Origin: Ktedonobacterales bacterium
GTDB taxonomy: Bacteria; Chloroflexota; Ktedonobacteria; Ktedonobacterales; JADMIN01
Assembly (NCBI GenBank): GCA_036378295.1
Contig: DASUWS010000232.1
Location: 10,387 to 74,386, forward strand
Reading direction: 5' to 3'
Length of the DNA: 64,000 nucleotides
Shown here: piece after piece, positions 47,620 through 62,286 of the stretch
Layout: every line of letters starts with the position of its first letter
Numbering within the stretch: position 1 is the stretch's first letter
Notes under the pieces: generated by a model
The model's database searches: none
What the model was told of the DNA's origin: nothing
The model's input: only the letters and a program-made list of their open reading frames with translations
Translations under genes and position numbers: made by a program

Positions 47620-47971
47620 GTCGTCTCCTGCTTCTGCCGCGGGCAGGGGCGCAGAGCGGTGTGGCGGGGAGGTTGAATATGCGCCTGGGGGAAACCAGAT
47701 GTATCGCAACGCGCTGCTGTAAAGCTCTTTCGCGCTCTGCCTGAAGCAAGTCTGCAGTCTCTTTACTGGCTTTCAGCGCTGAAGCAGAATCCCGTCGCGT
47801 CAGCCCGTCATTCCCTGGCCGATCTCAACCCAACCTCAACCCTCTCCCACTACCCTTCCGGCATTCCGCCCTCCGTGGCGGAAGCGCTACCCTGTGCGGG
47901 CCTGATGTCTGTTTGTCTGTCTGTGCGCTGCCGGAGCAGCACATCAGGAACGATTTCAGAGCGCTCCTAGA

Positions 47972-48688
47972 TCAGGAGCGATGCTCTGAAGTCAGTGATT
48001 GTGCCGTATTCATGCTGTCGGGACGGTTGCCATTACTGCGTGCGGGCGAGCCATCAGGGGTGCCGGGCGCATCAGGCGATTGATGCGCTGCACGCGAAAG
48101 CTTCAGCCAGACGACCACAATGCGCTGCACCGAGGTGAACACACTAGTCACTGCGAGCAACAGCAACGTCCAGATGAGCCACTGCTCGGCTCCCAGGATG
48201 AGTCCTACAGCCAGCACCAGCACGCGCTCTGGCCGGGCCATCAGGCCGCTTTTCATTTCCAGGCCCAGTCCCTCAGCCCGCGCGCGCGCATAGCTGACCA
48301 TCAGCGACCCCAGGCCGGCAATATATGCCAGGGCCAGGGTCCATGCCTTCTCCGTTGACGATGGCAAGGTGTTGACATAGAGGATGACGCCGAGAATGAC
48401 AATACCCTCGGAATAGCGATCCAGTGTCGAATCAAAGAAAGCGCCAAATGTAGTCTTTTGATTGCGTACACGCGCCAGCGCGCCATCCACCATGTCAAAC
48501 ATTCCAGCGAATAGAAGCAGCACCCCGCCCAGGCGCAATGCGCCCATCGCCAGAACCGCCGCCGTAATCGCGTTGAGCAGCAACCCAAGCACAGTCGCCA
48601 TATTCGGAGTCATGCCTATCGCCGCCAGCGGCCTTACTACCATCTCGGCAATGTGGCGCGCGGTCTGTTGTACGCGTGGCCCGAACAT
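47972..48688 (-). CDS. CDP-alcohol phosphatidyltransferase (phosphatidylinositol-phosphate synthase-like)
   Basis: The signature D-x2-DG-x2-AR-x8-G-x3-D-x3-D appears in FDMVDGALARVRNQKTTFGAFFDSTLDRYSE. Six TM segments are present. The gene is last in the ino1/pimA-like gene string. Confidence 0.8.
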   Translation of the reverse strand: MFGPRVQQTARHIAEMVVRPLAAIGMTPNMATVLGLLLNAITAAVLAMGALRLGGVLLLFAGMFDMVDGALARVRNQKTTFGAFFDSTLDRYSEGIVILGVILYVNTLPSSTEKAWTLALAYIAGLGSLMVSYARARAEGLGLEMKSGLMARPERVLVLAVGLILGAEQWLIWTLLLLAVTSVFTSVQRIVVVWLKLSRAAHQSPDAPGTPDGSPARSNGNRPDSMNTAQSLTSEHRS

Positions 48689-48826
48689 ACGTGCTCCTCG
48701 TTGCGTGCTGCTTCTATTGTACCACTCTCTGTCCCAGGGTTATGGTCTGGAATTTCAGGAACTCGCTTCTGTGAGCGATTCTGATCCCCCAAAAGGTGCG
48801 CGCATGGCCCATCAGGCCCAATCGCA

Positions 48827-50086
48827 TCAGCCGTCCATCATCATCCGCGAGAGATGATCCGGGGCGATGCTCTTCGAGTGCTCTTCTAGCAGCGGCAAAG
48901 CGGCTGCGGCAGGACGCGTGATCTGGCGTCCCCACGCGGGAGTATACTCCGCCCGCAGCTCACAATAATAGTTGAGCACCTGGTCGGCCACATGCTCCCA
49001 GCCAAAGTCTTTCGCGCGCTCTCGGGCTGCCGCCGCCAGGCGCGCGCGCTCACTCTCGTCATCTAGCAAATGACAGACCGCCCACGCCAGTTGCTCGTGG
49101 TTCTTTGGCGCGACCAGGAGGCCATCGCGGCGATTGCGAATCACCGAGCGGAACCCTGGAATATCAGAAGCCACCACCGCGCGCCCGGAGGCCATCGCCT
49201 CCAGCAAGACAATGCCCTGGCTCTCACCACCCGTATTCGGCGCGCAGAAAACATCCGCCGTAGCGTATAGCGACGGAAGCTGCTCCGCTGGCACGCGCCC
49301 CAGGAAGATGACATCGCGCCACCCCGCCTGAGCCACGTAGGTCTGGAAGCCAACTCGCTGTGGTCCGTCGCCGCCGATCAGGAAGCGCGTCTGGGGGTAG
49401 TGCTGGCGAATAATGGGAATCGCTCGCAGCAGGTACTTCAGCCCTTTGCGCTGCTCCAGCCGCCCCAGGAAGACGATAGTGAACCGATCATCCTGGGAAT
49501 ACTGAGCCAGTGGCGCGACGCCCTCGTGGAAGCGCCCCAGATCAACCCCATTTGGGATGATGCGGTACTCACCGGGGAAGAAACGCGAGACGAACTCCGC
49601 CGCGGCGGGCGAGACGGCGATGCGCCCGTGGAGTCGCCGGAAGTACCGCCCCAGCAATGGCTTGGCGGAATAGTACGCCCAATCGCTGGTCGAGGTCAGG
49701 CTGCGGCGCGCCCAGGCGTGGAAGGTTCCGACATAAATGGTATTGGTGACGCCGGTCAGGCGGAGCATGGTCAGCGGCAGGGCGGAGGCGAGCGGCTCGT
49801 GCAGATGCAGCACGTCGAACTGCTCCCGCCGCAACAGCGAGCGGATGCGTCCTCGCCAGTCAGGAGCGACCGCGACGCGCGCCACCGAGCCATTTACCCG
49901 GACAGGTGCCGCCCATCCCAGCTTGTACACCCCATATTCCACCTGACGGGAGCGCAGCCCGGTCGCCGGGGTGAGGATGCGCACGGTATTCCCCCGGCTA
50001 CGCAACTCCGCGGCCAGATGCGCTATATGATCCTGTACGCCCCCTGGATAGCTCCAGTCATAGGGCGAGACGAGTCCGATCTTCAC
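48827..50086 (-). CDS. pimA: GT4 glycosyltransferase, PimA-like (phosphatidylinositol alpha-mannosyltransferase candidate)
   Basis: The N-terminus MKIGLVSPYDWSYPGGVQDHIAHLAAELRSRGNTVRILTP closely mirrors the PimA N-terminus. The C-terminal GT-B motif reads ESQGIVLLEAMASGRAVVASDIPG. Confidence 0.7.
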   Translation of the reverse strand: MKIGLVSPYDWSYPGGVQDHIAHLAAELRSRGNTVRILTPATGLRSRQVEYGVYKLGWAAPVRVNGSVARVAVAPDWRGRIRSLLRREQFDVLHLHEPLASALPLTMLRLTGVTNTIYVGTFHAWARRSLTSTSDWAYYSAKPLLGRYFRRLHGRIAVSPAAAEFVSRFFPGEYRIIPNGVDLGRFHEGVAPLAQYSQDDRFTIVFLGRLEQRKGLKYLLRAIPIIRQHYPQTRFLIGGDGPQRVGFQTYVAQAGWRDVIFLGRVPAEQLPSLYATADVFCAPNTGGESQGIVLLEAMASGRAVVASDIPGFRSVIRNRRDGLLVAPKNHEQLAWAVCHLLDDESERARLAAAARERAKDFGWEHVADQVLNYYCELRAEYTPAWGRQITRPAAAALPLLEEHSKSIAPDHLSRMMMDG

Positions 50087-50221
50087 CGTGCGCCTTCCTG
50101 CCAGTTTGCCACATCAATAGTGCTGATCCACGACCGGGATGCTGCTATAGACGATCCCGGTAGGCTCATACTGAATGGTTGGATTGACCGCAACGTCCCA
50201 CTAGATGCGGAGTCGCTGCAT

Positions 50222-51157
50222 TTAACGTACCGCACTGGCTGAGAGAGGCATACGTGTGCTCCGCTGGAGAGCAAAGCCACCAATGCGGGCGATTGCGGTG
50301 CGCCGGGGCTCCATTTGCTCGAACGTCGCCCCACCTCCGTATACCATGCGGTGTGAAACAAAGGCAACATACTCCCTGGCCTGCCAGTAACGCCCCTCGG
50401 GCGCGGTCCGACGCGCCTCGACCGCCCGCCGGAACTCGGCAGCGTTGTGCCCTGGGAAGACCGTGCGGGCGCAGCCGACCGCCGTCGTCGTATGGGCATC
50501 GCTGCTACCAGTCTCTGCCCAATGATATACCGTGCGCGCAAGCGTCATCGCGACCCGCGACGAGCCAATGCCCGCGAAGCTGCCATTGAGCGTCTCGATG
50601 CCATCGGGATGCACCTCAGGCTGGCGCAGCAGGCGATTCATCACCTTGCGCTGGACACTATGGCGAAAGACGGGATTGAAGGGGTGGGCGATAATCGCGA
50701 GACCTCCCTGCGCATGCACCAGCTCGATGCTGCGCTCGATGCTCAGATCGGGCGGGACGCGCTTTTCCAGGAAGAGCGCGAGCATATGCCCCTCGCGCGT
50801 GCTAATCTCTTCGCCGACAATCACCTCGAAGGGGTAGTCACGTTGTGCCGCCAGGTCGCGCGCGCGCAACGCGCCCTCGATGGTGTCGTGGTCGGTAATA
50901 GCGATCACGTCGAGCGGGGTATACGTCTCGACGAAACTCAGCACTTCCTCCACCGAGCCAGTACCATCGCTGTAGTTGGTGTGCATATGCACATCGGCCA
51001 GCCCGTCACCGGGTTGGTGCTCCAGAGTAACGTTGGCGGCCTCGTCGCGCTCGTAGGATCCTGCGATAGTCTCCTCGTAGACGTCTTCGTTTACGCTCGC
51101 GTTCTCTGACTCACGCGATGGTCTGCCGATGAATTCATTGCTGGATGTACTCTTCAT
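50222..51157 (-). CDS. PHP (polymerase/histidinol-phosphatase) domain metal-dependent phosphoesterase
   Basis: The PHP ligand motifs are DVHMHTNYSDG, AITDHDT, GEEIST, IIAHP and GSSDAH. The start was taken at MKSTSS (51157). Confidence 0.8.
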   Translation of the reverse strand: MKSTSSNEFIGRPSRESENASVNEDVYEETIAGSYERDEAANVTLEHQPGDGLADVHMHTNYSDGTGSVEEVLSFVETYTPLDVIAITDHDTIEGALRARDLAAQRDYPFEVIVGEEISTREGHMLALFLEKRVPPDLSIERSIELVHAQGGLAIIAHPFNPVFRHSVQRKVMNRLLRQPEVHPDGIETLNGSFAGIGSSRVAMTLARTVYHWAETGSSDAHTTTAVGCARTVFPGHNAAEFRRAVEARRTAPEGRYWQAREYVAFVSHRMVYGGGATFEQMEPRRTAIARIGGFALQRSTRMPLSASAVR

Positions 51158-51211
51158 GAGTTGTGTCTCTCTTCGCACTCCCTGCCTGCGCTTCCACGCC
51201 CTGCGTGTCGC

Positions 51212-52201
51212 TCAAGCGGACGGAATGGCTGATTGCTTCGCTGGCTGGTCGTTTGTTGTCGTGCGTGGCATGCTCTGAGCGACGCTCTGCCGCTCGCCAG
51301 TTTCCCAGATGGGTGCCAGCGTTGAAACCCACTGCTCTGGATGTGCCACAATGAGCCGCTCTAGCTGCTCGATAAACTTGCTCATCGCCTGTGTGATGGC
51401 GACTTCGGTACGGGCGCGCGTGGCTGCGCTGCCAGCGTGCTCTGAATCCACATGCTCCGGCTGAACATGCAGCGGGATGACAACCCCGTGTGACCGGCCC
51501 CGGCCAAGCCGCCACGAAAAAGACGCGAGAATCGGGGCGCCGGTCTTGAGCGCGAGGGAGAATGCCGACGTTGGCAGGCGTGCTGGCTCACCAAAGAACG
51601 GCACTTCTATGCTCGATCCGATGATGTAGCGGTCGGATGCCACCAATACCAGTTCGTTGCGCTTGAGCGCGTTCATCATCTCGCGCAGGGTTTCGCGACT
51701 GTCTGCCGGAAGCAGGCGCATGTTGTGGTGTTCGCGGGTCTTGCAGAACCACTCGTAGAGTGCTTCTGGCTGCATCCGCTCGACGGGCGTTGTCATTTGA
51801 TAGCCAAGCGCGCCGAGCCGGGACGCGCCATACTCGAAGTTGCCAAAGTGCGCGCTGACGATGATCGCCCCGCGTCCCTGGCGCATCACCTCATGGATGA
51901 TCGGCTCGCCTTCGGTAGTCCATCCCGCAAGCACCTGCTTATCGGTGAGATGCCGCCCGCGCAGGAAATCCACATAGTTCAGCACCATATGCTCGAAGAC
52001 ACCCCGCGAGGCACGATGGAGAGCAACGGGGTCGCTGGCAAGCGTGGGAACATGGCGTAGGTTGCGCTCCACCCGGCGACGAAGCTGGCCACCGAAAGCC
52101 CAGATGAGCATACCAATCAGTTGTGCACCGGGGTACACCAGCCACAGTGGTAAGAAAGGTACGATGGCTCCCGCCAGGCGGAAGGCGCGCAACTTAGCCA
52201 T
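51212..52201 (-). CDS. LpxL/HtrB/PatA-family lysophospholipid (lauroyl/palmitoyl) acyltransferase, copy 2
   Basis: The Lip_A_acyltrans pattern is present (RNLRHV, GAIIVSAHFGNFEY, PAD, FFGEPARLPTS). The ATG at 52201 overlaps the upstream stop through ATGGCTAA. Confidence 0.75.
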   Translation of the reverse strand: MAKLRAFRLAGAIVPFLPLWLVYPGAQLIGMLIWAFGGQLRRRVERNLRHVPTLASDPVALHRASRGVFEHMVLNYVDFLRGRHLTDKQVLAGWTTEGEPIIHEVMRQGRGAIIVSAHFGNFEYGASRLGALGYQMTTPVERMQPEALYEWFCKTREHHNMRLLPADSRETLREMMNALKRNELVLVASDRYIIGSSIEVPFFGEPARLPTSAFSLALKTGAPILASFSWRLGRGRSHGVVIPLHVQPEHVDSEHAGSAATRARTEVAITQAMSKFIEQLERLIVAHPEQWVSTLAPIWETGERQSVAQSMPRTTTNDQPAKQSAIPSA

Positions 52202-53159
52202 GTGTCTGTTCTCCGGATGCCTGATTGGCTGCCGCGACGGGCAACAGCCCGGTCGTGTCGCTCTGGAGAGCGGGCTCACCATCTTCTGGCCAGAACCGGC
52301 GGAACATTTCCCACTGATCAGGATACTGTCGAATAACTTCCTCCATCGCATCGAACATCCGTTGCATCAACCTGACCGTGTCAGCCTGCTTGTCACCGGT
52401 GTTCTCCGGGAAGATGGGCGACATCGCTCCTATATAATACGTGCTGGAGTAGTTTTTGTCGTAACGACAATAGCCTGGAAGAATCGCCGCGCCAGATTTC
52501 AGGGCCAACTGGGCGATACCACCCGGAACATAACACGTTTTGCCAAAGAAGGTTACTGGCACGCCCTGGCCAACGGGCAATGGCTTATCCACCGCAACAG
52601 CGACGACGCGATTCTCTTGCAGCGCGCGCAAGATACGGCGCGGTGTCTTTTCGATGCGAATAATCCCCAGGCCCAGCTTACCGCGCTGCTCCATGACCAG
52701 TTTATCCATGCGCGGGTCTTCGAATGATTCGACGATGATATCAATCGGGACGTGGCTGCGCACCATGACCGCGGCAACATCCCACGCGCCGAAGTGAAAC
52801 GAAACCAGGATGACGCCTTTGCCAGGGGCGAGCGCCTCATCGATGTGACGGAACGCGCCCGGTGGCGGCGTGACATCCTTCATGCGCGCCAGCAACTCGT
52901 CAAACGTCGCATTGGGAAGATAGAAGAAGTCAGAGATATAGCGGCCATAGTTGCGCCAGGATTGCCGCGCCAGCCGCCGCGCCCGCACGTCGTTCTCAGG
53001 CACACCGAGCACCTGCGCCATGTTCGCGATAGTCGCGTGTCGCTTTTCTGCCCAGCCATAATAGATCAGCACGGTGATCGGACCAGCGATAGCCAGCCGT
53101 ACCGGGCGCGGCACATGGCCAGCGAGCCAGCTTGCCAAACGGGTAAGATAATAAACCAA
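52194..53159 (-). CDS. LpxL/HtrB/PatA-family acyltransferase, copy 1
   Basis: Present are IANMAQVLG, GVILVSFHFGAWD, the catalytic H-x4-D-like FHFGAWD, and FFGKTCYVPGGIAQLA. Confidence 0.75.
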   Translation of the reverse strand: MVYYLTRLASWLAGHVPRPVRLAIAGPITVLIYYGWAEKRHATIANMAQVLGVPENDVRARRLARQSWRNYGRYISDFFYLPNATFDELLARMKDVTPPPGAFRHIDEALAPGKGVILVSFHFGAWDVAAVMVRSHVPIDIIVESFEDPRMDKLVMEQRGKLGLGIIRIEKTPRRILRALQENRVVAVAVDKPLPVGQGVPVTFFGKTCYVPGGIAQLALKSGAAILPGYCRYDKNYSSTYYIGAMSPIFPENTGDKQADTVRLMQRMFDAMEEVIRQYPDQWEMFRRFWPEDGEPALQSDTTGLLPVAAANQASGEQTHG

Positions 53160-53492
53160 CGGCTCGCTCCTTCGATGCGTCCTCGGCAGGCGGAGCAGCG
53201 AATACCTGCGGACGAATTGCGTGTCTCCGGCGTGTCCGGCGGCTTCTCGGTACTGAGACTGCCGGGGAGAGCGTATCAGCAGTTGCTCCGGATACGCAAC
53301 AGTACTGCGAGAAATGGGTGAGCCAAAACAGTGTTCCGTCGTTACAGAGCATCCGCGGGAGCCAGGCCGCAGGCTAAAGACGCGTGGCTAATCCCGTCCG
53401 CTCGATACTAGCTCGGCGGGCGAGCAAGTGTGCTCACTGGGGTTAGCCATGGCCTTCAGGCTACGGCGCGCTCCTGCCTGATACTCGATGGA

Positions 53493-54668
53493 CTATTCTG
53501 CCTTGGGCATATCCTGCACGGTGACGGGCTTCTCGTTGTAGCCGTTGGCCGTTGCGTGGGCCTTCGTCTCGGCAGCGGGCTGCGTGTCCTGGCTGAACTC
53601 CCTGATGAACTCTTCAGTCATCAGGCGAGCCTGCTCGTCGGTGTACTGGATGGCCGGTGACTTCATGAAGTAGGCCGACGGACCAAGCAACGCCCCGCCG
53701 ACACCCGCATCCTTCGCCAGCTTGGCGCAGCGAACCGCGTCGATGACGACACCCGCCGAGTTGGGCGAATCCCACACTTCGAGCTTCAGCTCGGCATTCA
53801 GCGGCACATCGCCAAAGGTGCGGCCCTCCAGGCGAATGTAGGCCCACTTGCGGTCCGTCAGCCAGGCCACATAGTCACTCGGACCGATGTGGACGTTATC
53901 GGCGCCAATATCGTAGTCGAGCTGGCTCGTGACGGCATTCGTCTTGGAGATCTTCTTGGATTCGAGGCGGTCACGCTCGAGCATGTTGTAGAAGTCGGTG
54001 TTGCCGCCGACGTTGAGCTGCATCGTGCGCTCCAGCCGAACGCCACGCTCGCGGAAGAGGCGCGTCAGCGTGCGGTGGACAATCGTCGCACCAACCTGGC
54101 TCTTGATGTCGTCGCCAACAACCGGAAGATTCGCCTGCTCGAAGCGCTCGCGCCAGTACTGCTCGCGCCCGATGAAGACCGGGATGCAGTTCACGAAAGC
54201 GCAGCCAGCCTGCAGCACCTGCTCCACATACCACTTGGTGGCTGTCTCGCTGCCAACAGGCAGATAATTGATCACGACATCGGTGCCGGTGTCCTGCAAC
54301 ACTTTGACGATATCGGCGGTCTTGCCAGGAGCCTTGGTAATGACCTGCGAGAGATACTTGCCCAGGCCGTCATGCGTCATGCCCCGCTCGACCATGACGC
54401 CCTTCGTGGGGACGCTGGCGAACTTATAGGTGTTGTTCTGGCCGGAGAAGATTGCCTCGCTGAGATCCTTGCCGACTTTATCCGCGTCGATGTCAATCGC
54501 GGTGGAGAACTCGATATCGCTAATGTGATAGCCACCAAGGTTGACGTGCATCAGCCCTGGAACGAAGTCATCATCGGCGGCGTTCTTGTAATACTCGACG
54601 CCCTGCACGAGGGACGACGCGCAATTGCCCACGCCGACGATGCCCACGCGCACTTTCTTCTTGCCCAA
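53493..54668 (-). CDS. ino1: myo-Inositol-1-phosphate (inositol-3-phosphate) synthase
   Basis: Present are [39 protein letters not shown] and LNVGGNTDF. The likely start is the TTG at 54666-54668, 9 nt after AGGAGG; the track ORF extends to 54713. Confidence 0.9.
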
Positions 54669-54767
54669 GTTGCTATGCCTCCTGAAATAGGACTGTGTGC
54701 AAACTACTGCCATCGCAACCCAGGATCATCGGGTGCGATGACGGCGAACCCCTCAAATCCAGATCAT

Positions 54768-55196
54768 TTAGAATTGTCGTGCGGGCCGTGTGCCGGCTGG
54801 CTTGCCCGCAGATGCGCCCGGCGCACCTGATGCTTCCGATACGTCCGATGCGTCCGATCCACCTGCCGATGCTGGCGCCGCTATCGCTGGGATGCCACTG
54901 ACGACATCGGCTAGCTGGCGCAGGCATTGCTGACAACGGGCAACATCGAGCGAGCAATACACTTGCCGTCCCTGACGCCGTGTCCGCACGAGCCCGTTGC
55001 GCCGCAGAATCGCCAGATGCCACGAAACTAATGGCTGGCTAATCAGCAATTGCTGCGTCAGGTCCGTGACGTTTACCTCCTGGCTGTCGGCCAGAATACG
55101 TACGATGTTCAACCGCACCTTATCGGCCAGCGCTCGCGTCAGTTTTTCGAGTTCGGTGTAATCCTGCCAGCCGTCAGGTGTGCCTGTCTGCGTCAT
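54768..55196 (-). CDS. ArsR/SmtB family transcriptional regulator
   Basis: The segment LADKVRLNIVRILADSQEVNVTDLTQQLLISQPLVSWHLAILRRNGLVRTRRQGRQVYCSL matches the family. The gene lies directly upstream of ino1 on the same strand. Confidence 0.85.
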   Translation of the reverse strand: MTQTGTPDGWQDYTELEKLTRALADKVRLNIVRILADSQEVNVTDLTQQLLISQPLVSWHLAILRRNGLVRTRRQGRQVYCSLDVARCQQCLRQLADVVSGIPAIAAPASAGGSDASDVSEASGAPGASAGKPAGTRPARQF

Positions 55197-55278
55197 TCGC
55201 TCCGCCTTCAGCCGACGAGGAGGAGCACATACCCGCACTACGTTGTGCTGATCTCCCGCCTGGATACATCAAACTGCG

Positions 55279-55315
55279 CTATATAAACAAATCCTATATA
55301 AAGGATCGCTATATA
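55279..55315. promoter_or_regulatory. AT-rich operator/promoter-like element: three CTATATA repeats at 15-bp spacing around an ATCCT-N6-AGGAT inverted repeat
   Basis: CTATATA occurs at 55279, 55294 and 55309. The inverted repeat ATCCTATATAAAGGAT lies at 55291-55306. This is the most AT-rich stretch in the window, 85-120 nt upstream of the ArsR start. Confidence 0.5.
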
Positions 55316-55561
55316 TGTACCCTAGTTACCCAGGCTTGTCAAGAGGTGGCACGCGAGTTTGTGCGAACTGGTGAGGATCATCTGAACCTGCGCAGGCTGG
55401 TCGCCTCCTGGCCGTTGGGGGAGTGACGGCACTGCCGGAAAGACGGGCGCGCGATCAGCCCCGGACATGTAGACTGGCGACAAGGTGGGCAGTCGCATTG
55501 CGACGCGAGATGCAATGCGAGACGATGCCGGCGATCATGATGAGGATTCGAGGGGCGAACC

Positions 55562-56065
55562 ATGCGGGGATTTTACTGGCTAATCGACGGGATGCTGGCG
55601 GGCTGCGCGCGTCCCGGTAGCAGCGCGATCAGACGCGATGGCGCATTGGACGGCGACGACGCTCTGACAGCGCTGGATGCCGATCTGGCATGGCTGCGCG
55701 AGCGAGGCATCGGTGCCGTGCTGTCGATGACCGAGGCGCCACTCGCAACCGAAGCACTCGAACGCCACGGGCTGGAGTCACTCCACCTGCCCGTAGATGA
55801 TATGACCGCGCCCTCTCCCGAGCAGTTCGACCACGCCCTGCGCTTCATCGACTGGCAGCGGGTGCGCGGCAGGGCTGTGGTGGTGCATTGCAGGATGGGC
55901 CAGGGACGCACGGGCGTCGTATTGGCGGCATATCTCGTGCGGATGGGCGCGACGCCTGCCCAGGCACTCAGCCGGGTGCGGGCGATATGTCCGGGGGCGG
56001 TGAGCAGCCCAGAGCAAGAGCGGGCACTCGACGCCTTTGCGATCCGCCGCGACTGGATCGTTTGA
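55562..56065 (+). CDS. Dual-specificity (CX5R) phosphatase family protein
   Basis: The active-site P-loop is VVHCRMGQGRTG (HCxxGxxRT), and an upstream D lies in LPVDDMTAP. Confidence 0.8.
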   Translation: MRGFYWLIDGMLAGCARPGSSAIRRDGALDGDDALTALDADLAWLRERGIGAVLSMTEAPLATEALERHGLESLHLPVDDMTAPSPEQFDHALRFIDWQRVRGRAVVVHCRMGQGRTGVVLAAYLVRMGATPAQALSRVRAICPGAVSSPEQERALDAFAIRRDWIV

Positions 56066-56242
56066 CGAGACATCCTTCCCGGCTTCCGCTTCGCCTTGAC
56101 GCCTTGAAGCGCAGTGCAATATCAGATACCATGGCAACACACTTGCGACACACCGCATGCTGCATCGTACAATAATGGGCGATTCGGCAAAGCATTGAGC
56201 ATGAGGGGCTGCAACCACGAGGAAGTTGAGAAGTAGCGACTG

Positions 56243-57346
56243 ATGTACGCATCGATATTGGCGGGGGGCAGCGGGACGCGCCTCTGGCCCTTGAGCACCC
56301 AGCAAACCCCGAAACAGTTTCTCCGGCTGATGAGCGATCAGACGATGCTGCAGGAGACGGTCGAGCGGGTCGCGCCGTTCGTTGCGTCCGATCAGGTCTA
56401 CGTCGTGACGTTCGCGCAGTACCGCCAGGCTGTGGCCGAGCAGCTCCCTGCCTTGCCAGTCGATCATATTCTGGCGGAGCCTGTCGGGCGAGGCACCGCT
56501 GCCTCGATTGGCCTGGCCGCGACGCTCATTGCCGCCCGTGAACCCACTGCCATTATGGGCTCATTCCACGCCGACGCCGCGATTGCCGATGTCGCTGGCT
56601 TCCGCCACGCGCTGGCCTTTGCCGAGCAGGTGGCGCGTGAGGGCTATCTGGTGACGCTGGGCTGCACGCCCACCTACGCCGAGACCGGCTATGGCTACAT
56701 CCAGGCGGGCGCGCCGCTGGCCACCTGGCAAGGATTGGATGCCTACCATGTGAGCCGGTTCGTCGAGAAGCCGCAGCGCGCAGTGGCTGAGGAGTATCTG
56801 CGGGCAGGCAAGTACTCGTGGAATTCGGGCATCTTTGTCTGGCGCGTTGACCGCATCCTCGAGGAGATGCGCCGCTATGTCCCGCAGGTTGCCAGCGTGC
56901 TGGACGAGATCGGCGCCGCCGCACAGCAGACGGGTGGCCGAATGACGGCGGACGTAGAGCACGTGATGCAGCGGGCCTGGCCGCGATTGACGGAGAACGT
57001 GACCATTGACGTCGGCATCATGGAGCGCGCCGACCGCATCGCCGTTATCCCCGTCTCAGTCGGCTGGAATGATATCGGCAGTTGGGCGCAGGTCGCGACG
57101 CTGCATCCCCGGAATGACGCAGGCAATACCGTTGTGGGTCTGAGCCCTGAGCAGCATTTGAGCGTCCAGACGAGCGATACGCTGATTTTCAGCACGACGG
57201 GGCGGAAGATCGCAACAGCGGGCGTTGAGGGGCTGGTGATCGTGGATACCCCAGAGGGGGTGTTAGTCTGTGCCAAGGAACAGGTGCAGCTCGTGAAAGA
57301 CCTGGCTGAGCAGGCAAAGCAGGCACAGCAAAAGCCAGAAAGCTAG
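56243..57346 (+). CDS. manC: Mannose-1-phosphate guanylyltransferase (GDP-mannose pyrophosphorylase)
   Basis: Present are ILAGGSGTRLWPLS....PKQF, GYGYI, RFVEKP, WNSGIFVW and VGWNDIGSW. The size (367 aa) fits a ManC without a PMI domain. Confidence 0.88.
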   Translation: MYASILAGGSGTRLWPLSTQQTPKQFLRLMSDQTMLQETVERVAPFVASDQVYVVTFAQYRQAVAEQLPALPVDHILAEPVGRGTAASIGLAATLIAAREPTAIMGSFHADAAIADVAGFRHALAFAEQVAREGYLVTLGCTPTYAETGYGYIQAGAPLATWQGLDAYHVSRFVEKPQRAVAEEYLRAGKYSWNSGIFVWRVDRILEEMRRYVPQVASVLDEIGAAAQQTGGRMTADVEHVMQRAWPRLTENVTIDVGIMERADRIAVIPVSVGWNDIGSWAQVATLHPRNDAGNTVVGLSPEQHLSVQTSDTLIFSTTGRKIATAGVEGLVIVDTPEGVLVCAKEQVQLVKDLAEQAKQAQQKPES

Positions 57347-57516: not shown

Positions 57517-58266
57517 ATGGCCAGGTCCAGAGTGACGGCAACGAACCGACTTGCCAATATCATCGAAGTGATTGAACTGGGACGCCGCACGGGATTGCTT
57601 TCCACTGAACGGGACGCAAATGGTCTGGAAGAAGGCGAGATCTACTTCGTATCAGGGCACCCCATCTACGCCACCCTCGGTTCACTAGTTGGCCGTGACG
57701 CACTCAACGTGCTCGTGCGCTGGGGAGATTGCCGCTTCGCGTTTGAGACATCGGCGCCCCGCCCCATCCCGAATGTCTCCGGTGTCCTGCCTGCTATCGA
57801 CAGCAGCGGCGCACCGTATGGCGTCAGCACAGGCTACGAAGGCGGACAGCAATCTGAGCCGACCTCCCGGCCCCCGGCGTCTGCGCCCAATAGCGGTGCG
57901 AGTGGATCTGGCTGGGGCTATGGGAGTAGCTCGCCCAACATGATGCCTGGCGTGAACGCCAGCACACCGAACATGGGCAATTCCGGAATCTGGGGCTACT
58001 CTTCTCCACCTTCCCCGCCGGCAAGCTCTGGCTATCTTCCCAGACAACACCATCCCGCCGAGCAGCAAGTGCCCCGCCGCGCTCCGGATGTGCGCGACCT
58101 GCGGACGATTGTGGCTACCTATGGCCTCTCGCGCGGTCATCGCACGTTACTATTGCTGGCGAACGGGCAACATACCGTCGGAGACATGGCGCGCCTGTCG
58201 TCAAAGAGCATCGAAGAGGTGCTCCAACTGCTGAGTGACCTGCAGGGTTTTGGACTGATCTACTAG
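57517..58266 (+). CDS. DUF4388 domain protein with S/P/G-rich linker
   Basis: The N-terminus LANIIEVIELGRRTGLLSTER...GEIYFVSGHPIYATLGSLVGRDALNVLVRWGDCRFAFE is typical of DUF4388. A C-terminal helical module reads HTVGDMARLSSKSIEEVLQLLSDLQGFGLI. Confidence 0.7.
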   Translation: MARSRVTATNRLANIIEVIELGRRTGLLSTERDANGLEEGEIYFVSGHPIYATLGSLVGRDALNVLVRWGDCRFAFETSAPRPIPNVSGVLPAIDSSGAPYGVSTGYEGGQQSEPTSRPPASAPNSGASGSGWGYGSSSPNMMPGVNASTPNMGNSGIWGYSSPPSPPASSGYLPRQHHPAEQQVPRRAPDVRDLRTIVATYGLSRGHRTLLLLANGQHTVGDMARLSSKSIEEVLQLLSDLQGFGLIY

Positions 58267-58495
58267 ATGTAGATGGTTCAGTAGTTCGCAGCAATCAGAG
58301 AGCCGGGGATGGCGCTGCCTGGTATACTACCCGAAAGTACTGAAGATATCCCGATGGACCGGTTCCTGATGGCACCATTAGGTGTTCTTAACCATAACCC
58401 TCCATGGGCAGCGGTCTCCGAATACTTGTTTTTTTTCGCGATGGTTGAGACGTTCCGCGCGATATTATGGCCCGGTGAATTGAGGTGCTTCATTG

Positions 58496-60571: not shown

Positions 60572-62107
60572 CTACAGCCAGGTAGAAGGGAGGAAGAGTC
60601 TGCGCCGCAGATGCTCGTAGCGAAAGGATATCTTGCGCTCCTGGAGTTCCGGTGGAGGTGGCACGAGCGGCTGCTGCCAGTACCAGGGTCGAATGAAACG
60701 CTCGCCTTTGTCCGCGGCCTGAAGCGCCAGAAGCCACTCTTTACGCACCTCTGGGGAGTGTGCCGACGCTCCTGACCAGAGCAAGTGGAAGACATTCGCC
60801 GCGCGAATCATCTCCGAGAGTTGCCGCTCGTAGTTGACCCCAGCCTCTAACAAATCGTCGTGGTAGGAGATGATGCCCAGCTTCTCGTACGTTTCGCGGG
60901 CCTGGCGCATCGCCTCGCGGTCGCGGTGGCTGTAGGAGATGAAGACCGCATCGAAGGCGTTGCTGGTGACGGCAACTCCATGCGGAATATTCAGCGATAC
61001 GGTGGAGGCGCCGGAGCGAAACGAAAACGAGACGTCGATGGTGCAGATAGGCGAGACACGCTCGGCATAGATGTCGATCCAGCCGCGCTGTATTGTTCCA
61101 GCCAGATCCTGCGCTCCCGAGTAGCGGAAGAGCGAGCGGTGCCACTCCCCGCGCCAGATGAAGCTATCCTGCGCGGGCGAGAAGGTGACGCCCGCCATAT
61201 GAGGCTCGATGGTGAGCTCGACATTGCGGGCAATCTTGCGCAATGACTGCCCCAGCGCCACCACCGGCGCGCTGCCCAGCTCAGTAAATGTTCCGGCGTC
61301 CTGTTGCACCTGCACGAGCTGCGCTGGAAGGTGGGTGTAGACCAGCAACGTTTGTGGCGCCACCACTGGCGTCGCATTGGGATGATACGTGGAGAATTGC
61401 AGCGTTTCGGCCGCCGGTGATGGGCCACCGTATGCTCCCGGAGGCGCCGCAGGTTGCGCGCCCGATATGTCTGGCAGTCCGCCAGGAGCATGCGGAGGGG
61501 GTGCGGCTCGTGGCGCGGGCGGGGGTACAGCGCCTGGCGCGGGTGGTGGCGGGGGCGCGGCGGGTGGTGGTGCTGCTGGCTGCTCAGGGTAGGGCGCGGG
61601 TGGGGCAGGCGGCTCCGGGGGCTCTGGGGGCGCCGCTCGTGCCCGTTCTTCTTCTATGGCGGGCCAGTCATACTCTTCTACCTCTTCTACGGACGGCGCT
61701 TCCACACTCTCCGGTGCTGGTGGCGCTGGGAACTGGTCCGCGCGTGTGGGGGCGAAGATCATGGCGGCAAGTTGCTGTGGTGAGAGGTGTTCAGCGTTGA
61801 TGAACCGCCATTCGACCATCTCTAGTGAGAGCGATGTCTGCCGAATCGCCACGGCCATCAAAGCGGTATCCGCAAGCGACGAGGAATCCGCAAGCAGCCG
61901 GACCACTGATGGCGAGGTGAGCAGCTCAGGAGACACCAGCGTGATCACCATACTGTAGTGCGCAAGCGCATCAGTATCGAGCGCGAAGAACGTCACATTG
62001 TCGCGACGATCAAATACGAGATGCGGTACATAGATCTGTGCCGCCGTGATGAAGGACTCCGCGAATTGCTTATCCTGACTGGCATGGATGACCAGAACTC
62101 CCGCCAT
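60572..62107 (-). CDS. Two-TIR-domain protein: N-terminal degenerate TIR-like domain, proline-rich linker, beta-rich middle domain, C-terminal TIR_2 domain
   Basis: The C-terminal domain reads AVFISYSHRDREAMRQARETYEKLGIISYHDDLLEAGVNYERQLSEMIRAANVFHLLWSGASAHSPEVRKEW, which follows the TIR_2 pattern and keeps Glu at the catalytic position. The N-terminal domain reads VLVIHASQDKQFAESF...VITLVSPELLTSPSVVRLL, the same topology with Leu in place of the Glu. The linker is about 70 aa of P/A. GGGAGGG lies 6 nt upstream of the ATG at 62107. Confidence 0.75.
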   Translation of the reverse strand: MAGVLVIHASQDKQFAESFITAAQIYVPHLVFDRRDNVTFFALDTDALAHYSMVITLVSPELLTSPSVVRLLADSSSLADTALMAVAIRQTSLSLEMVEWRFINAEHLSPQQLAAMIFAPTRADQFPAPPAPESVEAPSVEEVEEYDWPAIEEERARAAPPEPPEPPAPPAPYPEQPAAPPPAAPPPPPAPGAVPPPAPRAAPPPHAPGGLPDISGAQPAAPPGAYGGPSPAAETLQFSTYHPNATPVVAPQTLLVYTHLPAQLVQVQQDAGTFTELGSAPVVALGQSLRKIARNVELTIEPHMAGVTFSPAQDSFIWRGEWHRSLFRYSGAQDLAGTIQRGWIDIYAERVSPICTIDVSFSFRSGASTVSLNIPHGVAVTSNAFDAVFISYSHRDREAMRQARETYEKLGIISYHDDLLEAGVNYERQLSEMIRAANVFHLLWSGASAHSPEVRKEWLLALQAADKGERFIRPWYWQQPLVPPPPELQERKISFRYEHLRRRLFLPSTWL

Positions 62108-62286
62108 GGGAACCCTCCCTTCGCACCGCTTCAGAGGCTCTTTAACTTCCAGGGACAAGCATGCGACGAGGTTGGAGCGGTGTCAAGGGCTGGCGAGTAT
62201 CCACGCCGAGCGCGCGATGCGACGGTGGACAGACCACGCGCCACTGCGTGATCAAGGCATTGTTATGCTCCTCCGCGTTGTGCCTC

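What the first reader, a model, noticed from the sequence alone, without database searches (positions are those of the whole stretch)
47972..57346. Complete, syntenic inositol-phospholipid / PIM-type glycolipid gene cluster
Six co-oriented minus-strand genes encode the following, in transcription order:
- an ArsR regulator
- inositol-1-phosphate synthase (ino1)
- two PatA/LpxL-family acyltransferases, whose reading frames overlap by 8 nt through ATGGCTAA
- a PHP phosphoesterase
- a PimA-like GT4, whose N-terminus is almost superimposable on the PimA motif M-x-IG-x-V-x-PY-x-x-x-PGGVQ-x-H
- a CDP-alcohol phosphatidyltransferase carrying the full DG-x2-AR...G-x3-D-x3-D signature

On the other strand lie a CX5R phosphatase and manC, which makes the PimA donor GDP-mannose.

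In mycobacteria, pgsA1-patA-pimA form an operon but ino1 and manC lie elsewhere. Here, essentially all steps from glucose-6-phosphate to an acylated phosphatidylinositol mannoside sit in one locus. No IMPase (SuhB/ImpA-type) gene is present. That fits the Ins-1-P + CDP-DAG -> PIP -> PI route. To my knowledge, such a compact arrangement in a non-actinobacterial-looking genome has not been characterised.
Basis: partly seen in the sequence, partly recalled or inferred. Interest (0 to 1): 0.75.

Follow-up and report, generated by a model that had tools for sequence, protein, structure and literature searches.

The report
Chloroflexota phosphatidylinositol-mannoside lipid gene cluster
A soil Ktedonobacterales (Chloroflexota) genome carries a conserved gene cluster that very probably makes phosphatidylinositol and an acylated mannosylated form of it, lipids usually regarded as an actinobacterial hallmark, and the cluster contains a good candidate for a pathway phosphatase that is still unidentified in mycobacteria.

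Summary
Seven (not six) co-oriented minus-strand genes encode ArsR, Ino1, two PatA-like acyltransferases (8-nt ATGGCTAA overlap), a PHP phosphoesterase, a PimA-like GT4 and a CDP-alcohol transferase. A CX5R phosphatase and ManC lie on the other strand.

- The GT4 matches M. smegmatis PimA at E 1e-60 (40.5% identity), against 1e-17 for MshA and 1e-14 for PimB'. It keeps the PimA-specific residues.
- The transferase scores 135-159 bits on inositol-phosphate-using synthase models against 27 bits on PgsA. It keeps every inositol-phosphate pocket residue of M. tuberculosis PgsA1.

The organism is an uncultured Ktedonobacterales bacterium. The seven-gene core recurs in ten other Ktedonobacterales loci and as one tightly overlapping operon in a Limnocylindrales MAG. 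Dehalococcoidia-labelled contigs carry Ino1, a fused double acyltransferase, PHP, PimA and PIPS.

PHP sits immediately upstream of PimA in all three classes. That makes it the best candidate for the PIP phosphatase, which is reported as unidentified in mycobacteria. This role is inferred, not shown. The CX5R phosphatase is not conserved.

Verdict: a new variant of a known pathway, uncharacterised in the literature I could search, and moderately interesting.

The parts
54768..55238 (-). ArsR/SmtB-family winged-helix regulator. This is the longest ORF; the probable real start is the ATG at 55196, preceded by GGCGGAG.
   Evidence: PF01022/PF12840 and NF033788 at 83 bits, above its cut-off of 55. 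It is the first gene of the cluster in all Ktedonobacterales loci and in the Limnocylindrales operon L098.
55279..55342 (-). Putative arsR-ino1 promoter with an operator-like array. It has -35 TTGACA (55342-55337), a 17-nt spacer and -10 TACATA (55319-55314). Three TATATAG copies sit at exact 15-nt spacing (55315-55309, 55300-55294, 55285-55279), and the first overlaps the -10.
   Evidence: The block is invariant across four Ktedonobacterales species, while the flanking spacer is not alignable. TATATAG occurs only four times in the 64-kb window, three of them here. Sequence read. Function is inferred.
53493..54713 (-). Ino1, myo-inositol-1-phosphate synthase (glucose-6-phosphate to 1L-Ins-1-P, which is D-Ins-3-P). 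Gene callers start it at 54668.
   Evidence: PF01658 E 2e-36. TIGR03450 scores 545 bits, aligned end to end but below the actinobacterial equivalog cut-off of 638. It is 82-92% identical in Ktedonobacterales loci and 67-68% in L090 and L092.
53160..53492 (-). 333-nt spacer between ino1 and the first acyltransferase. It holds a conserved block around 53240-53310 (GTTGCGTATCCGGAGCAA at 53300-53283) and a conserved RBS/start region. It is probably an internal promoter.
   Evidence: Alignment of four species. No Rfam family matched. The consensus scan found no promoter here, so the assignment is weak.
52194..53159 (-). Acyltransferase 1 (AT1), PatA/LpxL family.
   Evidence: PF03279 E 9e-40. The best NCBIfam model is the PIM acyltransferase PRK07920 at 137 bits, below its cut-off of 209. 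The best solved structure is PatA, E 3e-22. PatA H126, D131, E149 and R164 are kept, E200 becomes D, and H284 becomes E (residue roles from PMC4792965).
51212..52201 (-). Acyltransferase 2 (AT2), PatA/LpxL family. It starts inside the stop region of AT1 (ATGGCTAA, 8-nt overlap).
   Evidence: PF03279 E 8e-32 and PRK07920 at 125 bits. PatA E 1e-14. H126, D131 (as E), E149 and R164 are kept, and E200 becomes D. AT2 is only 24% identical to AT1, so they are old paralogues. In L090 the two are fused in the same order into one 608-aa protein that passes the PRK07920 cut-off.
50222..51157 (-). PHP-family metal-dependent phosphoesterase (TrpH/YciV-like, with a PHP_C domain). It has no membrane segment, and its N- and C-terminal tails are variable and disordered. 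It is the candidate phosphatidylinositol-phosphate phosphatase.
   Evidence: PF02811 plus PF13263. His, Asp and Glu residues in the positions expected of PHP metal ligands are invariant in 15 homologues (H57, H59, D64, H90, E116, H124, H158, D220, H222). The AlphaFold model has a mean pLDDT of 63.7, with core blocks mostly 60-90. Its nearest folds are RNase AM, TM0559 and BVU_3505. A PHP gene lies directly upstream of the PimA gene in Ktedonobacterales, Limnocylindrales (4-nt overlap) and Dehalococcoidia-labelled contigs (4-nt overlap in L099).
48827..50086 (-). PimA-like GT4 glycosyltransferase (predicted reaction: GDP-mannose plus PI gives PIM1).
   Evidence: M. smegmatis PimA E 1e-60 over residues 1-374, 40.5% identity. 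These residues are conserved: Y9, P14-G15-G16, Q18, the inositol-phosphate loop N63-G-S-V-A-R68, H118, R196, E199, R201, K202 and E274-S275...E282. Tyr9, Ser275 and the long beta3-alpha3 loop are what distinguish PimA from PimB' (PMC2988379).
47972..48688 (-). Phosphatidylinositol-phosphate synthase-like CDP-alcohol phosphatidyltransferase (CDP-DAG plus Ins-P gives PIP plus CMP).
   Evidence: PF01066. NCBIfam scores: AIP synthase 159, BT1523 PIP synthase 155, PIP synthase 135, PgsA 27 bits. The best solved structures are mycobacterial PgsA1 entries 6h5a and 6h53 (6h53 is M. tuberculosis PgsA1), E 4e-26 to 5e-26, 36.5% identity. D68, D71, D89, D93, R94, S132, Y133, R137, R152, R155 and R195 are all kept, and K135 becomes R (roles from PMC6506517). 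Hydrophobic segments are consistent with a polytopic membrane protein.
56243..57346 (+). ManC-type mannose-1-phosphate guanylyltransferase without a PMI domain. It supplies GDP-mannose.
   Evidence: PF00483 plus PF22640. TIGR01479 scores 302 bits over model positions 2-350 of 467. It lies within 5 kb of the cluster in L007-L010, L013 and L087 but not in the other classes, so it is a loosely linked accessory.
55562..56065 (+). Dual-specificity/CX5R phosphatase (DUSP23-like). It is probably not a conserved component.
   Evidence: PF22785, PF22784 and PF00782. Best PDB matches are 25xa and DUSP23. It is present next to the cluster only in L001 and L007-L009. It is absent from L010-L015, L087, L090 and L098.

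Best explanation
This is a biosynthetic cluster for phosphatidylinositol and an acylated phosphatidylinositol mannoside in a Ktedonobacterales (Chloroflexota) bacterium. The proposed steps are:

1. Ino1 converts glucose-6-phosphate to inositol phosphate.
2. The CDP-alcohol transferase condenses inositol phosphate with CDP-diacylglycerol to give phosphatidylinositol phosphate (PIP).
3. The PHP-family metallophosphoesterase removes the inositol 3-phosphate to give PI.
4. The PimA orthologue transfers mannose from GDP-mannose, supplied by the neighbouring ManC, to inositol O-2 to give PIM1.
5. The two anciently diverged PatA-like acyl-CoA acyltransferases add one or two fatty acids, giving Ac1PIM1 or Ac2PIM1.
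6. The ArsR-type protein probably represses its own promoter through a TATATAG array.

What is shown by sequence: family assignment and retention of catalytic and substrate-pocket residues for Ino1, PIPS, PimA and both acyltransferases, and conserved synteny in three Chloroflexota classes.

What is inferred: the PHP substrate, the sugar donor, the acylation positions, co-transcription and regulation.
For: Family assignments:
- PimA matches at E 1e-60, a gap of about 135 bits over any other solved GT4. The PimA-specific residues are kept (PMC2988379).
- All inositol-phosphate pocket and metal ligands of M. tuberculosis PgsA1 are kept (PMC6506517).
- The PatA catalytic His and acid and the substrate residues E149 and R164 are kept in both acyltransferases (PMC4792965).

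Synteny:
- The full seven-gene core is present in nine Ktedonobacterales species MAGs and in L087.
- The same seven genes form one operon with abutting or 4-nt-overlapping genes in a Limnocylindrales MAG.
- Dehalococcoidia-labelled contigs carry Ino1, a fused AT1-AT2, PHP, PimA and PIPS.
- L099 and L093 carry PHP-PimA-PIPS.
- The fused acyltransferase passes the curated PIM-acyltransferase cut-off.
- In L092 a second, unrelated PHP phosphatase of the HisJ type sits beside ino1-pimA.

Pathway logic:
- The only enzymatic step of the PgsA1-type route with no gene assigned is PIP to PI. PHP is the only hydrolase conserved in the cluster.
- Cultured Ktedonobacteria (Dictyobacter) have PI as a major polar lipid, plus unidentified glycolipids and phospholipids (PMC12453558).
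Against: - There is no biochemical or lipid evidence for this organism, which is an uncultured MAG.
- PIPS, both acyltransferases and Ino1 all score below the curated equivalog cut-offs of NCBIfam.
- PHP relatives at 35-46% identity are widespread in Patescibacteria, Dormibacterota, Anaerolineae and Archaea with no PIPS, Ino1 or PimA within 10 kb.
- In a crude NJ tree the PimA-linked PHPs are not a separate clade.
- Several Chloroflexota PimA-PIPS pairs have no PHP nearby (L094, L096, L097).
- The closest characterised PHP relatives act on nucleotides (RNase AM, pAp phosphatase).
- In this window the genes are separated by 54-333 nt. No promoters or terminators could be called, so operon structure is unproven.
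- No PimB-type second mannosyltransferase is present.
Confidence: 0.65

Rival explanations
1. The cluster does make PI and PIM, but the PHP protein is not the PIP phosphatase. On this reading it is one of three things. It could be an inositol-monophosphatase substitute. It could be a nucleotide-directed hydrolase, a functional counterpart of the Nudix hydrolase encoded next to pimA in mycobacteria. Or it could be a housekeeping RNase AM/pAp-phosphatase-like enzyme that merely travels with pimA. PIP would then be dephosphorylated by an unlinked enzyme, for example a PgpA-like enzyme as in Bacteroides, or by the neighbouring CX5R phosphatase.
For: - The nearest characterised relatives of the PHP are RNase AM/TrpH and the pAp 3'-phosphatase Cv1693.
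- The family is widespread without any link to inositol genes.
- The tree does not separate linked from unlinked members.
- Some PimA-PIPS pairs lack a neighbouring PHP.
- Bacteroides uses a PgpA-like PIP phosphatase (PMC9246714).
- A CX5R phosphatase lies next door here. From general knowledge, the related PTPMT1 dephosphorylates phosphatidylglycerophosphate.
Against: - PHP is immediately upstream of PimA in three Chloroflexota classes and is translationally coupled to it (4-nt overlaps) in two lineages.
- A second, unrelated PHP phosphomonoesterase subfamily is independently recruited beside ino1-pimA.
- The PIPS keeps the phosphate-binding arginines. A PIP intermediate, and therefore a PIP phosphatase, is required and free inositol is not.
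- The CX5R phosphatase is syntenic only in the closest relatives.
Confidence: 0.25
2. The GT4 and the acyltransferases act on something other than PI with mannose. Possibilities are a different sugar donor, glycosylation of PIP before dephosphorylation, or synthesis of another inositol-containing glycolipid or a soluble inositol glycoside. The end product would then not be a PIM in the mycobacterial sense.
For: - Identity to PimA is only 40%.
- Donor specificity cannot be read from the sequence. In PimB' the purine is bound only through main-chain atoms.
- ManC is only loosely linked and is absent from the cluster in other classes.
- GT4-PHP pairs also occur in Roseiflexus with a non-PimA GT4 next to a GT2 and a DedA protein. 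This suggests a general pattern of a glycosyltransferase paired with a phosphatase acting on a phosphorylated acceptor.
- PatA H284 is not conserved in AT1.
Against: - The acceptor-side PimA signature is fully conserved: Tyr9, Gln18, the inositol-phosphate loop and Glu199.
- Ser275, which PMC2988379 links to accommodation of the mannose in PimA, is kept.
- PimA is constantly paired with PIPS across Chloroflexota.
- Two lipid-type acyltransferases and a polytopic PIPS argue for a membrane lipid rather than a soluble solute.
Confidence: 0.08
3. The genes are neighbours without a shared function. The co-orientation would be incidental, and the annotations would reflect generic GT4, LpxL and CDP-alcohol transferase family membership.
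For: In this window the intergenic gaps are 54-333 nt, and no operon-level signals could be called.
Against: The same gene set is conserved over protein identities of 35-70% in three classes. Gene fusion and overlapping reading frames occur elsewhere. The residue-level matches are specific.
Confidence: 0.02

Closest known systems
Mycobacterial and corynebacterial early PIM pathway (pgsA1 Rv2612c, patA Rv2611c, pimA Rv2610c operon, with ino1 and manC elsewhere)
   Same: It shares the same three enzyme families with the same catalytic and substrate-binding residues: a PIP synthase that uses inositol phosphate, PimA and PatA. It follows the same two-step PI route through PIP (PMC6506517, PMC4792965, PMC2988379).
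   Different: - The gene order differs.
- ino1, an ArsR regulator and (loosely) manC are brought into the locus.
- There are two divergent PatA paralogues instead of one.
- A PHP phosphoesterase sits directly before pimA.
- From general knowledge, the HIT and Nudix genes that flank the mycobacterial operon have no counterpart here.
- No PimB' is present.
- The host is a Chloroflexota bacterium.
- Identities are only 25-40%, and the proteins fall below the NCBIfam equivalog cut-offs.
Bacteroides thetaiotaomicron inositol-lipid cluster BT_1522-BT_1526 (Heaver et al. 2022, PMC9246714)
   Same: MIPS and a PIP synthase are encoded together with the phosphatase needed to turn PIP into PI. The window's transferase scores 155 bits on the BT1523 model.
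   Different: The Bacteroides phosphatase is PgpA-like, whereas here the candidate is a PHP-family enzyme. Bacteroides goes on to inositol sphingolipids through an IPC synthase. This cluster goes on to mannosylation and acylation.
Archaeal archaetidylinositol-phosphate synthase pathway
   Same: The best-scoring NCBIfam model for the transferase is the AIP synthase (159 bits). Relatives of the PHP family are common in Archaea.
   Different: The score is below the AIP synthase cut-off of 180. Cultured Ktedonobacteria have fatty-acid-based polar lipids (PMC12453558), so CDP-diacylglycerol is the expected donor. The archaeal PHP relatives are not linked to AIP synthase genes within 10 kb.
TrpH/YciV (RNase AM) and Cv1693-type PHP phosphoesterases
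   Same: The fold and the predicted metal-ligand pattern are the same. These are the closest solved structures. The chemistry is comparable: removal of a phosphomonoester from a secondary ring hydroxyl of a molecule that also carries a phosphodiester or phosphate elsewhere (pAp compared with PI-3-P). That comparison is inference.
   Different: The match covers mainly the N-terminal 70 residues at E 1e-8 to 1e-13. The scores lie far below the equivalog cut-offs (60 against 375, and 50 against 400). The genomic context is lipid biosynthesis rather than RNA or sulfur metabolism.

Membership tests
PimA (GT4 phosphatidylinositol alpha-mannosyltransferase) | GT-B, GT4 two-domain architecture | tested here: met
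   PF13439 (E 5e-24) plus PF00534 (E 1e-39).
PimA (GT4 phosphatidylinositol alpha-mannosyltransferase) | Closer to PimA than to MshA, PimB' or generic GT4 enzymes | tested here: met
   PimA scores 209 bits (E 1e-60) over the full length. Sucrose-phosphate synthase scores 74, MshA 66 and PimB' 56. A control GT4 from Roseiflexus gives no PimA hit. No tree against reference sequences could be built.
PimA (GT4 phosphatidylinositol alpha-mannosyltransferase) | PimA-specific acceptor and donor residues: Tyr9 (Asp in PimB'), the extended beta3-alpha3 inositol-phosphate loop, Ser275 (Gly in PimB'), His118, R196/K202 and EX7E | tested here: met
   All are conserved with no gap in the loop. The criteria come from PMC2988379.
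PimA (GT4 phosphatidylinositol alpha-mannosyltransferase) | [quoted passage not shown] | not testable with these tools
   This needs an enzyme assay or lipid MS.
Phosphatidylinositol-phosphate synthase (PgsA1/PIPS, class I CDP-alcohol phosphotransferase) | D1xxD2GxxAR...GxxxD3xxxD4 motif | tested here: met
   Residues 65-90, DMVDGALARVRNQKTTFGAFFDSTLD.
Phosphatidylinositol-phosphate synthase (PgsA1/PIPS, class I CDP-alcohol phosphotransferase) | Inositol-phosphate pocket: R94 (specific to Ins-P users), S132, K135, R137, R152, R155, R195 | tested here: met
   All are conserved, with K135 becoming R. The criteria come from PMC6506517.
Phosphatidylinositol-phosphate synthase (PgsA1/PIPS, class I CDP-alcohol phosphotransferase) | Reaches the curated NCBIfam equivalog cut-off | tested here: not met
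   PIPSynth scores 135 against a cut-off of 170, the AIP synthase model 159 against 180, and BT1523 155 against 350. It belongs to the Ins-P-using clade but to none of the three curated equivalogs. PgsA scores only 27 bits.
PatA (PIM acyltransferase, LpxL/PF03279 family) | PF03279 domain, with PatA as the closest characterised relative | tested here: met
   AT1: E 9e-40, with PatA at E 3e-22 against LpxM/LpxL at 1e-11. AT2: E 8e-32, with PatA at 1e-14 against 1e-6.
PatA (PIM acyltransferase, LpxL/PF03279 family) | Catalytic H126-E200 relay and the PIM-binding residues E149, R164 and H284 | tested here: inconclusive
   H126, E149 and R164 are kept in both. E200 is replaced by Asp in both. H284 becomes Glu in AT1 and is not aligned in AT2 (PMC4792965).
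PatA (PIM acyltransferase, LpxL/PF03279 family) | Reaches the NCBIfam PRK07920 cut-off of 209 bits | tested here: not met
   AT1 scores 137 bits and AT2 125 bits. The fused AT1-AT2 orthologue in L090 reaches 269 bits, but that is summed over two domains.
Myo-inositol-1-phosphate synthase (Ino1/MIPS) | PF01658 catalytic domain and a full-length match to bacterial Ino1 | tested here: met
   PF01658 E 2e-36. TIGR03450 aligns over model positions 1-355 of 355 at 545 bits, below the actinobacterial 'mycothiol_INO1' cut-off of 638. PF07994 was not detected.
PHP-family metallophosphoesterase | PHP domain with conserved metal-binding His, Asp and Glu residues | tested here: met
   PF02811 plus PF13263. 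H57, H59, D64, H90, E116, H124, H158, D220 and H222 are invariant in 15 sequences. Their metal-ligand role is inferred from their positions in the fold. Foldseek hits are all PHP folds.
PIP phosphatase (functional class; the only known bacterial example is the PgpA-like BT_1525) | Homology to BT_1525/PgpA | tested here: not met
   No PgpA (PF04608) hit was found among the cluster proteins. The PHP protein would be a non-homologous analogue, not a member.
PIP phosphatase (functional class; the only known bacterial example is the PgpA-like BT_1525) | Hydrolyses the inositol 3-phosphate of PIP | not testable with these tools
   Only genomic association is available: PHP lies directly upstream of PimA in three Chloroflexota classes.

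The most novel reading that the evidence does not exclude
The most novel reading has two linked parts, set against a background claim.

Background: Chloroflexota possess an old, vertically inherited PIM-type glycolipid pathway of their own.

Part 1: a PHP-family metallophosphoesterase, translationally coupled to PimA, is the PIP 3-phosphatase. This step is still unassigned in mycobacteria, and the enzyme would be non-homologous to the PgpA-like enzyme of Bacteroides.

Part 2: the two PatA paralogues, which are fused in some lineages, carry out the two successive acylations. That would make AT2 or AT1 a lead for the inositol acyltransferase, which is also unidentified in mycobacteria.
Probability: 0.33. 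Interest if true: 0.75.

Novelty: new variant of a known kind. Interest (0 to 1): 0.55.

Why it matters
- **Taxonomic reach.** PIMs and their early biosynthetic enzymes are treated as an actinobacterial speciality and as drug targets in M. tuberculosis. A conserved PimA-PIPS core in several Chloroflexota classes widens the distribution of this lipid family. The proteins are more similar to one another than to mycobacterial PimA. This also gives a genetic explanation for the PI and 'unidentified glycolipids' reported in Ktedonobacteria chemotaxonomy.

- **Testable enzyme candidates.** Two pathway steps have no assigned gene in mycobacteria.
  - The PIP phosphatase is described as 'yet-unidentified' or 'unknown' in PMC6506517 and PMC7502851. 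The candidate here is the PHP protein.
  - The second PIM acyltransferase has 'not been identified' according to PMC9490103. The candidate here is one of the two PatA paralogues.

- **Limits.** The mycobacterial operon has no PHP gene, so a PHP-type phosphatase would not necessarily solve the mycobacterial case. The authors of PMC9490103 expect their inositol acyltransferase to be periplasmic and unrelated to PatA.

Tried and rejected
- **Regulatory signals.** An Rfam scan of 44-60 kb at E<=0.1 found nothing. The sigma-70 and terminator consensus scan gave counts at or below the shuffled expectation and nothing in the intergenic regions.

- **CX5R phosphatase as the PIP phosphatase or a core part.** Rejected as a conserved component. 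It is syntenic only in L001 and L007-L009.

- **Genome scan with the PHP alignment.** It found the Ktedonobacterales clusters. Beyond them it returned only relatives at 46% identity or less, with no PIPS, Ino1 or PimA within 10 kb and with unrelated neighbours. Those were found later through the GT4 representative search.

- **NJ tree of PHP proteins.** PimA-linked and unlinked members are not separated. All bacterial members are about 35-40% identical, so the tree is uninformative.

- **Structure prediction and Foldseek for PHP.** These confirmed only the generic PHP fold. The model is of modest quality (pLDDT 63.7).

- **Roseiflexus GT4-PHP pairs.** The GT4 there is generic, with sucrose-phosphate synthase as its best hit. 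This is a different system, recorded only as a parallel.

- **Guanine-binding residues.** I recalled D253 and K256 of PimA from memory as guanine contacts, and they are not conserved. I could not verify them in the literature held, and PimB' binds the base through main-chain atoms only. No conclusion on the donor was drawn.

- **Not achieved.**
  - I could not establish whether cultured Ktedonobacteria (Ktedonobacter, Dictyobacter, Thermogemmatispora) carry the cluster.
Bit-score gaps and diagnostic residues were used instead.

Full report
**1. What is in the sequence**

Their domain content is as claimed (Pfam, NCBIfam).

On the minus strand, in transcription order:
- an ArsR/SmtB regulator (54768-55238, probable ATG at 55196);
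- Ino1 (53493-54713; PF01658; TIGR03450 545 bits, aligned end to end);
- two PF03279 acyltransferases, AT1 (52194-53159) and AT2 (51212-52201);
- a PHP phosphoesterase (50222-51157; PF02811 plus PF13263);
- a GT4 glycosyltransferase (48827-50086);
- a CDP-alcohol phosphatidyltransferase (47972-48688).

That is seven genes, not the 'six' stated.

On the plus strand lie a CX5R dual-specificity phosphatase (55562-56065) and a ManC-type guanylyltransferase without a PMI domain (56243-57346).

The ATGGCTAA overlap between AT1 and AT2 is present. Independent gene calls on identical soil-metagenome contigs agree with it. No IMPase signature occurs anywhere in the window. PF07994 was not detected.

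The flanking genes are unrelated: TatC, an amidohydrolase, a crotonase, CoaD and a NYN-domain protein on one side, and DUF4388, Cache and TIR proteins on the other.

**2. Organism**

The PHP protein is 100% identical to a protein of an NCBI 'MAG TPA: Ktedonobacterales bacterium'. All of the 120 best database hits shown for the GT4, PHP and transferase that carry an organism name are from Ktedonobacterales; many carry none. Identical clusters occur on farmland and other soil metagenome contigs.

**3. Tests of the family assignments**

*GT4.* It matches M. smegmatis PimA at E 1e-60 (209 bits) over residues 1-374. The next solved GT4 scores 74 bits, MshA 66 and PimB' 56. Identity to PimA is 40.5% over 358 positions.

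The features that PMC2988379 uses to separate PimA from PimB' are all PimA-like:
- Tyr9, which is Asp in PimB';
- the long beta3-alpha3 inositol-phosphate loop, N63-G-S-V-A-R68, with no gap;
- Ser275, which is Gly in PimB'.

Also conserved are P14-G15-G16, Q18, H118, R196, E199, R201, K202 and the EX7E glutamates. As a control, a generic Chloroflexota GT4 from Roseiflexus does not hit PimA at E<=1e-12.

*CDP-alcohol transferase.* It scores 159, 155 and 135 bits on the AIP synthase, BT1523 PIP synthase and PIP synthase models, against 27 bits on PgsA. Its best solved relatives are the mycobacterial PgsA1 entries 6h5a and 6h53 (6h53 is M. tuberculosis PgsA1), at E 4e-26 to 5e-26 and 36.5% identity.

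It keeps the four motif aspartates. It also keeps every residue that PMC6506517 places in the inositol-phosphate pocket: R94, S132, Y133, K135 (as R), R137, R152, R155 and R195. It is therefore an inositol-phosphate-using enzyme. That implies a PIP intermediate and a need for a PIP phosphatase. It lies below the curated cut-off of each of the three equivalog models, so it is a divergent member of that clade.

*Acyltransferases.* Both have PatA as their best characterised relative (E 3e-22 and 1e-14, against 1e-11 and 1e-6 for lipid A acyltransferases). Both keep PatA H126, D131 (D or E), E149 and R164, with Asp in place of E200. H284 is not kept in AT1. They are only 24% identical to each other, so they are old paralogues rather than a recent duplication. 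Both lie below the PRK07920 cut-off.

**4. Comparative genomics: the main new result**

*Within Ktedonobacterales.* A genome scan seeded with the PHP family, followed by tblastn of all cluster proteins against the returned loci, was run. It shows the complete core ArsR-Ino1-AT1-AT2-PHP-PimA-PIPS, followed by the NYN gene, in nine Ktedonobacterales species-representative MAGs. A tenth locus, L087, has the same core. Protein identities fall to 40-70%.

ManC is within 5 kb in six of these loci. The CX5R phosphatase is present in only the three closest, so it is not a conserved component.

*Beyond Ktedonobacterales.* An exhaustive representative search with the GT4 was run, followed by name look-ups. 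The nearest relatives outside Ktedonobacterales are 43-52% identical, which is closer than mycobacterial PimA. Every one of them that carries an organism name is a Chloroflexota MAG (Dehalococcoidia, Limnocylindrales or 'Chloroflexota bacterium'); several carry none.

| Locus | Source | Gene arrangement |
|---|---|---|
| L098 | Limnocylindrales MAG | ArsR-PIPS-Ino1-AT-AT-PHP-PimA as one operon, with abutting or 4-nt-overlapping genes |
| L090, L091 | Dehalococcoidia-labelled contigs | Ino1, a single 608-aa acyltransferase, PHP, PimA, PIPS |
| L099 | Unnamed 2.28-Mb contig whose PimA shares a 90% cluster with a Dehalococcoidia-named protein | PHP-PimA (4-nt overlap)-PIPS |
| L093 | Metagenome contig | Frameshifted PHP-PimA-PIPS |
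| L092 | Metagenome contig | HisJ-type PHP phosphatase (NF004981, 278 bits), unrelated to the cluster's PHP, divergent from Ino1-PimA |
| L096 | Metagenome contig | AT-AT-PimA-PIPS, no PHP |
| L094, L097 | Metagenome contig; Chloroflexota MAG | PimA-PIPS only |
| L095 | NCBI MAG contig (GCA_030157225.1), organism not determined | PimA alone |

In the fused 608-aa acyltransferase of L090, the N-terminal half is most like AT1 and the C-terminal half most like AT2. The fused protein passes the PIM-acyltransferase cut-off.

The PimA-PIPS pair is therefore the conserved core in Chloroflexota. The window shows the fullest version of the cluster. PHP directly upstream of PimA is the most persistent additional association.

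**5. Mechanism**

The best-supported model is the PgsA1-type route:
1. Ino1 makes inositol phosphate.
2. PIPS makes PIP from CDP-diacylglycerol.
3. A phosphatase makes PI.
4. PimA adds mannose, with GDP-mannose supplied by ManC.
5. The two acyltransferases add fatty acids.

I assign the phosphatase step to PHP for four reasons:
- It is the only pathway step without a gene.
- PHP is the only hydrolase conserved in the cluster.
- It is translationally coupled to PimA in two lineages.
- A second PHP subfamily has been recruited independently beside ino1-pimA.

PHP has invariant His, Asp and Glu residues in the positions expected of metal ligands. It has no membrane segment. Its closest characterised relatives remove a ring phosphomonoester from pAp or act as RNase AM. 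The chemistry is plausible but the substrate is inferred.

Evidence against the assignment:
- The family is widespread without linkage to inositol genes.
- A crude tree does not separate linked from unlinked members.
- Some PimA-PIPS pairs lack a neighbouring PHP.

The fusion of AT1 and AT2 argues that both act in the same pathway. Whether they acylate the mannose 6-OH and the inositol 3-OH, as in Ac1PIM and Ac2PIM, is speculation. No PimB-type enzyme is present, so the predicted product stops at acylated PIM1 unless other genes contribute.

**6. Regulation**

Upstream of arsR there is a perfect -35 TTGACA, a 17-nt spacer and a -10 TACATA. These are followed by three TATATAG copies at exact 15-nt spacing, the first overlapping the -10. 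The block is invariant in four species, while the rest of the spacer is not alignable. This looks like an autoregulated ArsR operator.

A second conserved block lies in the 333-nt ino1-AT1 spacer, which suggests an internal promoter. Co-transcription is untested.

**7. Literature**

- PI is a major polar lipid of cultured Ktedonobacteria (Dictyobacter), together with unidentified glycolipids and phospholipids (PMC12453558).
- Heaver et al. describe bacterial inositol lipids as largely limited to Actinobacteria, Spirochaetes and now Bacteroidetes. They identified a PgpA-like PIP phosphatase in Bacteroides (PMC9246714).
- In mycobacteria the PIP phosphatase is 'yet-unidentified' or 'unknown' (PMC6506517 and PMC7502851).
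- Searches combining PIM or PIP synthase with Chloroflexi or Ktedonobacteria found no relevant paper. The library searched is incomplete.
- Automatic JGI annotation already names these proteins PimA and PIP synthase.

**8. Verdict**

This is a new variant of a known pathway: a Chloroflexota version of the early PIM pathway. It has its own gene set, namely ino1, a regulator, two PatA paralogues and a PHP phosphoesterase. It is not categorically new.

Its value lies in extending PIM-type lipids beyond Actinobacteria. It also offers concrete, cheaply testable candidates for one or two enzyme steps that remain unassigned in mycobacteria.

Noticed in passing
window 55279-55342 (minus strand): Upstream of arsR there is a perfect -35 TTGACA, a 17-nt spacer and a -10 TACATA, followed by three TATATAG repeats at exact 15-nt spacing. 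This AT-rich block is invariant in four Ktedonobacterales species inside an otherwise unalignable spacer. It is a likely ArsR autoregulatory operator.
   Followed up: partly
window 53160-53492: The 333-nt spacer between ino1 and the first acyltransferase contains a conserved block (around 53240-53310, including GTTGCGTATCCGGAGCAA). It also has a conserved RBS plus TTG start. It may be an internal promoter. No Rfam family matched.
   Followed up: partly
window 45550-47709 (minus strand): A NYN-domain protein lies directly downstream of the PIP synthase gene in the Ktedonobacterales loci whose contigs extend that far. It has a C-terminal NYN domain (PF01936) and a roughly 550-residue Pro/Ala/Glu/Thr-rich, apparently disordered N-terminal region. 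It is 63-82% identical across those loci. It is absent from the clusters of other classes. Any link to the lipid genes is unknown.
   Followed up: no
window 55495-55518: A short inverted repeat, GCATTGC-N10-GCAATGC, lies about 45 nt upstream of the CX5R phosphatase start. It may be a regulatory site for the divergent gene.
   Followed up: no
L034 7263-10708 and L052 8661-10711 (Roseiflexus / Roseiflexaceae MAGs): A related PHP gene overlaps the end of a generic GT4 gene by 4 nt. The best solved match of that GT4 is sucrose-phosphate synthase, not PimA. In L034 a GT2 and a DedA/VTT membrane protein precede the pair. This is a different glycosyltransferase-plus-PHP module of unknown product.
   Followed up: partly
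L090 7252-9078: The two PatA-like acyltransferases of the window are fused, in the same order, into one 608-aa protein in a Dehalococcoidia-labelled lineage. This Rosetta-stone fusion indicates that the two enzymes act together.
   Followed up: yes
L092 5923-6639: A histidinol-phosphatase-type PHP protein (NF004981, 278 bits) is transcribed divergently from an ino1-pimA pair. It is unrelated at sequence level to the cluster's PHP. This is a second, independent association of a PHP phosphomonoesterase with these genes.
   Followed up: partly
L098 8152-13491: In the Limnocylindrales MAG, a 1779-aa protein with PMT/PMT_2 (GT-C, polyprenyl-phosphate-mannose-type) domains lies convergent to the end of the PimA operon. 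A TMEM260-like gene follows it. These could be enzymes that extend the glycolipid outside the membrane.
   Followed up: no
window 60572-62158 (minus strand): A 528-aa protein has a C-terminal TIR domain (PF13676) and a long proline-rich linker. It sits next to a Cache-domain protein with a Gly/Pro/Gln-rich tail (58493-60496) and a DUF4388 protein (57517-58266). None appears related to the lipid cluster.
   Followed up: no
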